This document shows positions 1,100 through 1,310 of a stretch of DNA of 64,000 nucleotides, piece after piece. The notes below the pieces were generated by a model. It ran no database searches, was not told where the DNA came from, and saw only the letters and a list, made by a program, of their open reading frames with translations. How positions within the stretch are numbered: the first letter of the stretch is position 1; the number at the start of each line of letters is the position of its first letter. Both the position numbers and the translations under genes were made by a program. Source of the DNA: Octopus vulgaris (taxonomy: Eukaryota); contig OX597836.1 of the NCBI GenBank assembly GCA_951406725.2, forward strand, positions 46,810,001 through 46,874,000, given 5' to 3'.

Positions 1100-1310
1100 A
1101 AATTATCAAGACTATTGAAAAGGTTGCAAGACGCAACGAAAATTTTAGAAAATAAAAATAAGAAATAAGTGGAAATTTTACCGGTGACTGTGTTAAATAA
1201 TAAGGCGCTAAAAGAGAATGACTCTCCCCAGACACAACAGAATATGCTTCAACACACGAACTCATATAAAGAATCTTGCAAACCAAATCCAAAAATGAAA
1301 TACCATCTTT
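1100..1310 (+). mobile_element. Dispersed Penelope-like repeat (family H2) carrying the hammerhead-like motif
   Basis: Same sequence recurs at ~4545-4745(-), ~22910-23030(+), ~53100-53265(+) and, more diverged, ~50030-50230. Penelope assignment is inference from the hammerhead motif and flanking degenerate peptides. Confidence 0.55.
1112..1148 (+). ncRNA. Minimal type I hammerhead-like motif, U3-A8 core variant (family H2)
   Basis: CTA | TTGAAAA | G | GTTGC-AAGAC-GCAAC | GAA | AATT | T | TAG: stem I 3 bp, stem II 5 bp perfect, palindromic stem III, UUU cleavage triplet. Homologous copies at 4701-4737(-), 53132-53168(+), partial 22912-22939. Confidence 0.6.

What the first reader, a model, noticed from the sequence alone, without database searches (positions are those of the whole stretch)
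1112..1148. U3-A8 hammerhead variant in family H2
Two of three intact copies have T at position 3 with A at position 8 (1115, 53135); the third (4701-4737) has C3/A8. Stem II GTTGC/GCAAC is identical in all three while flanks diverge. Stem I is only 3 bp, so activity is uncertain.
Basis: partly seen in the sequence, partly recalled or inferred. Interest (0 to 1): 0.7.

Follow-up and report, generated by a model that had tools for sequence, protein, structure and literature searches.

The report
Minimal hammerhead in retroelement terminal repeat
A short self-cutting-RNA (hammerhead) pattern sits in scattered, decaying copies of a jumping-gene end repeat, and its unusual U-A core pair has already been described in such elements, so this is an ordinary new example, not a new kind of ribozyme.

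Summary
The motif is real. 1112-1148 fits a minimal type I hammerhead: U3-A8 core, one extra base, 5-bp stem II, palindromic stub stem III, U17, 3-bp stem I. A literature-style descriptor gave 2 hits in the window and none in 200 shuffles.

(1) Only two copies are intact: the 53135 copy has A6G and A15.1U, and a fourth copy (about 22.9 kb) lacks the core. (2) Stem II is not better conserved than the flanks (p=0.23; 0.61 with copy 4). (3) Stem I has no extension.

U3 is the likelier family state (T in 2 of 3 copies; likelihood ratio 4-9) but is unproven. The motif lies in a dispersed repeat of up to about 700 nt with variable 5' ends and two fixed 3' ends, as in Penelope-like pLTRs; no RT or endonuclease gene is attached.

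U3-A8 minimal hammerheads are published for Schistosoma Penelope-like elements (about 1,300 hits; PMC4209133), one with the same 7-nt core and a 3-bp stem I. These solitary copies are probably inactive. Verdict: new member of a known kind, low interest.

The parts
1112..1148 (+). Copy 1 minimal type I hammerhead motif. Stem I 1112-1114/1146-1148; U3 1115, A8 1120, A9 1121, extra G 1122; stem II 1123-1127/1133-1137; G12-A15.1 1138-1141; A15.2-U16.2 1142-1143; U16.1 1144; U17 1145 (predicted cut 1145|1146)
   Evidence: fold
1106..1301 (+). Whole copy 1 of the repeat: 5'-truncated 6 nt before stem I, ends at the long 3' end point
   Evidence: 93% identical over 197 nt to 4743-4547; ends
1149..1217 (+). 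AU-rich spacer after the motif; its first 37 nt are the best-conserved part of the family; holds an AATAAA at 1150-1155
1218..1301 (+). ATG and 28-codon frame, possibly the start of the parent element's ORF (stop at codon 27 in this copy); coding signal not significant
   Evidence: four short database proteins share the peptide
4701..4737 (-). Copy 2 motif, C3 (4734)-A8 mismatch, otherwise identical to copy 1
4547..5254 (-). Whole copy 2 (about 708 nt): AC-rich low-complexity 5' part, motif, spacer, 28-codon frame
53132..53168 (+). Copy 3 motif: U3-A8 but A6G (53138) and A15.1U (53161); not intact
52915..53266 (+). Whole copy 3, 5'-truncated, ends at the short 3' end point next to a TA-rich microsatellite
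22450..23033 (+). Copy 4: same 5' start as copy 2; motif remnant 22912-22939 with the core deleted and stem II broken; short 3' end
50029..50113 (-). Diverged relative of the ATG-to-end segment (65 of 84 nt identical to copy 1), same 3' end point, no hammerhead
50209..50260 (+). Second diverged fragment, inverted head-to-head with the previous one, 95 nt apart

Best explanation
The motif is a minimal type I hammerhead (min-HHR) of the U3-A8 kind, carried in the terminal repeat (pLTR) of a Penelope-like retroelement or of a non-autonomous derivative. SHOWN: the sequence fits the min-HHR pattern; stem II folds stably and stem I does not; the repeat is dispersed, with variable 5' ends and two shared 3' ends; no copy has a same-strand neighbour nearby. 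INFERRED from the known class: in a tandem master transcript two motifs swap strands at the palindromic A15.1-A15.2-U16.2-U16.1 stub and build a 4-bp helix III. U3:A8 replaces the C3:G8 pair that positions nucleotide 8 (established hammerhead chemistry, recalled), and the RNA is cut slowly after U17, probably only with help from the element's protein. The four copies here are solitary insertions made by reverse transcription from fixed start points and are decaying neutrally: C3 in copy 2, A6G and A15.1U in copy 3, the deletion in copy 4. They most likely do not cleave. Rough odds: hammerhead origin 0.9, Penelope-like carrier 0.8, U3 as family consensus 0.75, physiological cleavage of any of these four copies 0.1.
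For: Descriptor: 2 hits in the window, 0 in 200 shuffles. Features that PMC4209133 lists as emerging in this class are present: an extra base between 9 and 10.1, G10.1-C11.1, palindromic 15.2-16.2. Its Fig. S3 has a PLE-associated Schistosoma motif with the same 7-nt core, U17 and a 3-bp stem I, and a PLE-associated oyster motif with the same A-U-U-U run after the GAAA box. Stem II pairing probability is about 0.99. 5' ends at 1106, 52915, 22450 and 5254; 3' ends shared by copies 1, 2 and fragment 50029, and by copies 3 and 4 about 50-55 nt earlier. A terminal tail present at some ends and inverted 5'-truncated copies are described PLE traits (PMC8557442); an inverted pair of related fragments lies at 50087-50235. 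The order pLTR, hammerhead, ORF start, end inside the ORF matches PAc (PMC11167929). T3 is favoured 3.7-8.6 fold.
Against: No RT or GIY-YIG frame was recognised upstream of any copy (translations, read by eye). No full-length protein carrying the 28-residue peptide was found (one search gave only short proteins), and that frame shows no significant coding signal (P=0.22 and 0.29). There is no covariation and no excess conservation of stem II. Rfam finds no hammerhead at gathering score or among the 150 of 524 weak matches listed. The 3' end gap (about 50-55 nt) exceeds the 30-40-bp tail quoted for PLEs. Only three copies inform position 3 and they are not phylogenetically resolved. The extra base is G, where the published consensus has H (1 of 56 rows has G, by eye).
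Confidence: 0.68

Rival explanations
1. The family consensus is C3-A8, a mismatched and already crippled core, and the two T3 copies arose by independent C-to-T changes or belong to a subfamily. The element would be a PLE-type repeat spreading with a weak or dead ribozyme.
For: Copy 2, the longest copy, has C3 and is otherwise perfect in the motif. C-to-T is the commonest change per site in this family (6 of 111 C sites against 1 of 122 T-to-C). The PAc hammerhead is dispensable for insertion in vitro.
Against: It needs two hits at one site; the likelihood ratio is 3.7-8.6 against it. The one 2:2 site in well-aligned sequence groups copy 3 with copy 2, not with copy 1, so T3 is not a private mark of a copy 1 + 3 clade.
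Confidence: 0.2
2. The pattern is a chance likeness: a 5-bp hairpin in the A-rich end of a SINE-like or other repeat, with no hammerhead ancestry.
For: No covariation, no excess conservation, no Rfam hit, stem I probability 0.005-0.06 in copy 1, no PLE protein linked.
Against: 0 hits in 200 shuffled windows; near point-for-point match to published PLE min-HHR rows; PLE-like end structure.
Confidence: 0.06
3. The motif descends from a hammerhead but is kept in the master element as a protein-binding or transcription and 3'-processing signal, together with the conserved AU-rich flank, not as a cutter.
For: The flank is as conserved as the motif. The self-complementary 8-mer around the cut site favours an inactive 8-bp duplex (-3.6 kcal/mol) over the 4-bp helix III (+0.8). 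No RNA-seq reads ended at the PAc cut site.
Against: Conservation among young copies needs no selection. A restored Watson-Crick 3:8 pair is what catalysis, not binding, would select for. Dimeric min-HHRs do cleave, weakly.
Confidence: 0.06

Closest known systems
U3-A8 min-HHRs of Schistosoma mansoni Cercyon Penelope-like elements (Cervera and de la Pena 2014, PMC4209133; family row S. mansoni(4))
   Same: Type I topology; the same 7-nt core with U3-A8; one extra base before G10.1; G10.1-C11.1; no loop III, palindromic 15.2-16.2; U17; 3-bp stem I; AU-rich 3' flank; mostly solitary dispersed copies.
   Different: Extra base G, not A; stem II 5 bp with a 5-nt loop; 15.2-16.2 is A-U, not C-G, so helix III is all A-U and sits in an 8-nt palindrome; stem I closes with A-U; no linked ORF shown here.
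Crassostrea gigas PLE min-HHR (same paper, Fig. S3)
   Same: Mollusc PLE motif with a 5-bp stem II, 5-nt loop, A-U stub helix III, U17 and 3-bp stem I.
   Different: Canonical C3-G8 core and an A insertion.
Poseidon PAc of Anolis carolinensis (PMC11167929)
   Same: pLTR hammerhead near the ORF start; insertions end at fixed points inside the ORF start; weak ribozyme.
   Different: C3-G8 core; ORF starts within stem II there, 69 nt after the motif here; protein-assisted cleavage shown there, untested here.
Animal non-LTR retrozymes (PMC7229834; bioRxiv 10.64898/2026.07.22.740005)
   Same: Non-coding repeats with type I hammerheads, argued to derive from PLE pLTRs.
   Different: Those are tandem arrays of short monomers, mostly with canonical helices and loop 1-loop 2 contacts; these copies are solitary, up to about 700 nt, with a minimal motif.
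Hydra-clade PLE hammerheads, including Hydra-1_Obim (PMC8557442 File S2)
   Same: Hammerhead near the 3' end of a PLE in invertebrates.
   Different: 3-4-bp intramolecular stem III and C3-G8 cores; none of 4 DNA words or 2 peptide words from this family occurs in that supplement.

Membership tests
Hammerhead ribozyme, canonical (Rfam models; C3-U4-G5-A6-N7-G8-A9, G12-A13-A14, A15.1-U16.1, H17) | Canonical core C3...G8 | tested here: not met
   U3/A8 in copies 1 and 3, C3/A8 in copy 2; no Rfam match at gathering score
Hammerhead ribozyme, canonical | Long helix I with loop 1-loop 2 tertiary contact | tested here: not met
   With stems I and II enforced, the best fold adds no pairs beyond the 3-bp stem I in any of 3 copies
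PLE minimal hammerhead (min-HHR), U3-A8 variant | Core boxes with a 3:8 Watson-Crick pair, GAAA box and NUH site | tested here: met
   Copy 1 meets all; copy 2 lacks the 3:8 pair; copy 3 fails at 6 and 15.1; copy 4 is deleted
PLE minimal hammerhead (min-HHR), U3-A8 variant | One extra base between 9 and 10.1; G10.1-C11.1; palindromic 15.2-16.2; short helix I | tested here: met
   G1122; G1123-C1137; A1142-U1143; 3 bp, against the criteria
PLE minimal hammerhead (min-HHR), U3-A8 variant | U3-A8 is the family consensus | tested here: inconclusive
   T in 2 of 3 informative copies; likelihood ratio 3.7-8.6; no host genome available
PLE minimal hammerhead (min-HHR), U3-A8 variant | Covariation or selective conservation of stems across copies | tested here: inconclusive
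   No compensatory change; p=0.23 and 0.61; four copies 7.5-14.5% apart give little power
PLE minimal hammerhead (min-HHR), U3-A8 variant | Self-cleavage as a dimer | not testable with these tools
   Needs an in vitro assay; folding predicts a competing 8-bp duplex
Penelope-like element | ORF with telomerase-like RT and GIY-YIG endonuclease joined to the repeat | tested here: inconclusive
   None recognised next to the 4 copies; all may be truncated or non-autonomous; protein searches gave no long relative
Penelope-like element | pLTR traits: 5' truncation, fixed 3' ends with optional tail, inverted truncated copies | tested here: met
   against descriptions; the inverted pair belongs to diverged relatives, not to the four copies
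Non-LTR retrozyme | Tandem array with a hammerhead in consecutive units | tested here: not met
   Four solitary copies; the nearest two are on opposite strands 3.2 kb apart

The most novel reading that the evidence does not exclude
Copies 2 and 4 share a 5' start within a few bases, so the family may be a defined non-autonomous element of about 700 nt: a dispersed, non-tandem Penelope derivative with a fixed U3-A8 core. Its all-A-U, 8-nt palindrome around the cut site would lock the ribozyme off until the element's protein refolds it. That would be a protein-gated U3-A8 hammerhead in a host lineage where my two literature searches found none described.
Probability: 0.12. Interest if true: 0.45.

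Novelty: new member of a known kind. Interest (0 to 1): 0.17.

Why it matters
It matters little as it stands: it adds one more family to the thousands of minimal hammerheads known from Penelope-like elements, and one more independent case of the C3-G8 to U3-A8 swap. If the genome-wide consensus is U3-A8, it is modest evidence that the core was under selection for catalysis when the element was active, which bears on the open question of what PLE hammerheads do. This window cannot show that.

Tried and rejected
Rfam: 0 matches at gathering score; at E up to 10 there were 524 matches, of which the 150 listed were microsatellite-driven miRNA, snoRNA and sRNA models with no hammerhead, and 374 were not seen.

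Stem I extension past an internal loop: none in constrained folds of 3 copies with 30-nt flanks.

Excess stem II conservation: rejected. Coding signal in the 28-codon frame: not significant.

Search for the parent protein: word-index searches with the peptide alignments scored 0 of 42 and 0 of 4614 candidates. The HMM search gave 5 hits at E up to 0.001; four share the peptide and are 40-178 aa, and one (P0003) looks unrelated. Pfam gave nothing under E 0.08 for 10 peptides. The Atlas gave no usable lead. Names and sources of the five hits stayed unknown.

Prokaryotic genomes: 0 exact matches to the motif, as expected.

Assignment to the Hydra or Naiad clades: no shared words in the supplement of PMC8557442, and a different hammerhead type. 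TIR-element reading of the convergent copies 1 and 2: rejected, because copy 2 continues 510 nt beyond the shared part with homology to copies 3 and 4.

Lunse et al. (RNA Biol 14:1499, listed as a reference), the most relevant paper on dimeric PLE hammerhead variants, was not held, so whether it lists this exact variant is unchecked.

Full report
Context. The window is AT-rich, microsatellite-dense animal DNA (18,474 of 64,000 bases masked by TRF). Its repeats look cephalopod-like to me; that is recalled and was not tested.

Observation. At 1112-1148 the plus strand reads as a type I hammerhead: stem I CTA/TAG, core TTGAAAA (U3 1115, A8 1120), one extra G, stem II GTTGC/GCAAC around a 5-nt loop, GAAA, then A15.2-U16.2-U16.1-U17 with no loop III. 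The stem II 15-mer occurs exactly at 1123(+), 4712(-) and 53143(+), and with two mismatches at 22914(+). A column-by-column comparison confirms T, C, T at position 3 and A8 throughout. It also shows that the 53135 copy has G6 and U15.1. Changes at these two positions lower activity in natural variants (A6C and U15.1-A16.1 in PMC3088659, passages; A6C in PMC7151607, passages), and here U15.1 faces U16.1 unpaired. A fourth copy has lost 13 nt across the core and has two stem II substitutions. So there are four copies, two with intact boxes: one U3-A8, one C3-A8.

Is it chance? A strict descriptor built from the published min-HHR features (Y3/R8 core, G10.1-C11.1, stem II of 4 bp or more, palindromic stub III, UH, stem I of 3 bp or more) hits 1115(+) and 4734(-) only, and 0 of 200 dinucleotide shuffles. 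Rfam has no match. A 71-nt fold has z of -2.2 to -2.6, owing mainly to stem II.

Conservation. The claim that stem II is conserved while flanks diverge fails. Among copies 1-3, 33 of 37 motif columns are invariant against 35 of 37 in the next 37 nt. Stem II against 98 downstream columns gives p=0.23, and p=0.61 with copy 4; pairwise divergence is 7.5-14.5%. There is no compensatory change. The identity is what shared descent predicts; with four copies the test also has little power to detect selection.

Position 3. T in two of three informative copies needs one change, C needs two. With the family's own substitution counts the likelihood ratio for ancestral T is 3.7 (strand-specific) to 8.6 (pooled) under a star tree. 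Of two 2:2 sites, the one in well-aligned sequence groups copies 1+4 against 2+3, which does not make T3 a shared late change. U3-A8 is therefore likely (about 0.75), not established.

Structure. Stem II forms with probability about 0.99; stem I with 0.005-0.06 in copy 1, 0.007-0.018 in copy 2 and 0.09-0.38 in copy 3, depending on flank length. Forcing stems I and II adds no further stem I pairs, so there is no hidden extension. A13 to U1.1 is an 8-nt palindrome: between two molecules the 8-bp duplex (-3.6 kcal/mol), which would bury A13, A14 and U17, beats the 4-bp helix III of an active dimer (+0.8). No copy has a same-strand partner nearby. Activity of these loci is unlikely.

The carrier. 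The motif lies in a dispersed repeat: 1106-1301(+), 5254-4547(-), 22450-23033(+), 52915-53266(+). Upstream lie up to about 500 nt of AC-rich low-complexity sequence; downstream come a 69-nt AU-rich spacer, an ATG and a 28-codon frame. 5' ends vary, except that copies 2 and 4 start together. 3' ends fall at two points: copies 1, 2 and a diverged fragment at 50029 end at the same base, copies 3 and 4 about 50-55 nt earlier. That fragment and a second one at 50209 form a head-to-head inverted pair. Fixed 3' ends inside the ORF start, an optional tail and inverted truncated copies are described for Penelope-like elements (PMC11167929, passages; PMC8557442, passages). Against this, no RT or endonuclease frame was recognised beside any copy, the frame has no significant coding signal (P=0.22, 0.29), and protein searches gave only four short proteins with the same peptide, probably gene calls over other copies. 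The PLE link is thus architectural, not shown by protein homology.

Mechanism. Inferred from the class: two motifs on one tandem transcript pair through the palindromic stub to complete helix III; U3:A8 stands in for C3:G8; the RNA is cut after U17. Published min-HHRs do not cleave as monomers and cleave weakly as dimers (PMC4209133). The PAc hammerhead cleaves only with the element's protein and is not needed for insertion in vitro. The copies here are best read as solitary, decaying insertions.

Comparison with what is known. PMC4209133 (I read parts 1-2 of 4 of the text and parts 1-2 of 3 of the supplement) reports the U3-A8 core in Schistosoma Cercyon elements, about 1,300 hits, mostly single motifs. 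In its Fig. S3, by eye, 2 of 56 rows are U3-A8, one with the same 7-nt core, U17 and a 3-bp stem I; 29 of 56 have stem I of 3 bp or less; about 24 of 56 have U17; 1 of 56 has G as the extra base. PMC3088659 (passages) reported natural U3-A8 covariation in 2011 and notes earlier in vitro activity. Also seen: PMC6765202 and PMC7229834 (passages), bioRxiv 10.64898/2026.07.22.740005 (part 1 of 5) and the supplement of PMC8557442 (parts 1-2 of 59 and word searches). A search for hammerhead + Penelope-like + Octopus listed only PMC8557442, and hammerhead + U3-A8 only PMC4209133, so this particular family may be undescribed. The library lacks most subscription papers, Lunse et al. was not held, and repeat databases were not available.

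Verdict. This is a new member of a known kind, a PLE-type minimal hammerhead, probably U3-A8, in neutral decay. Interest 0.17.

Noticed in passing
window 62085-62127 (-), position 3 at 62121: A second, unrelated hammerhead-like motif with a canonical C3-G8 core, one extra G, 6-bp stem II and a 2-nt non-palindromic loop III.
   Followed up: partly
window 31330-31968 (-): Frameshifted remnant whose peptides resemble, by eye, the RT thumb and linker of Hydra-clade Penelope-like elements in the supplement of PMC8557442. Pfam, word-index search and Atlas gave nothing. Not adjacent to any copy of this family.
   Followed up: partly
window 50029-50113 (-) and 50209-50260 (+): Two diverged relatives of the family's 3' segment, head-to-head, without a hammerhead.
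   Followed up: yes
window 22027-22084 and 23085-23142: 58-bp, 91% inverted repeat enclosing copy 4, as if it had inserted into a MITE-like element.
   Followed up: no
window 1616-1861 (+), 38628-39347 (-), about 50300-50750 (-): Degenerate frames with motifs recalled as Tc1/mariner transposase; Pfam gave no significant match for the three peptides tested from the first two regions.
   Followed up: partly
window 1150-1155 and 1183-1189 (+), and the matching sites in copies 2-4: An AATAAA just after the motif (changed in copy 2) and a splice-donor-like GGTGAGT 34 nt downstream in copies 2-4 (changed in copy 1). PLE pLTRs can hold introns, but no acceptor was identified.
   Followed up: no
window 5254 (-) and 22450 (+): Copies 2 and 4 begin at the same point; copy 2 has an approximately 30-nt unit repeated about three times near this end.
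   Followed up: partly
window 25876-26288 and about 15 further sites; 8129-8450 and 5 or more further sites; 3989-4166 and about 9 further sites: Several high-copy SINE-like repeat families unrelated to this one (output partly cut).
   Followed up: no
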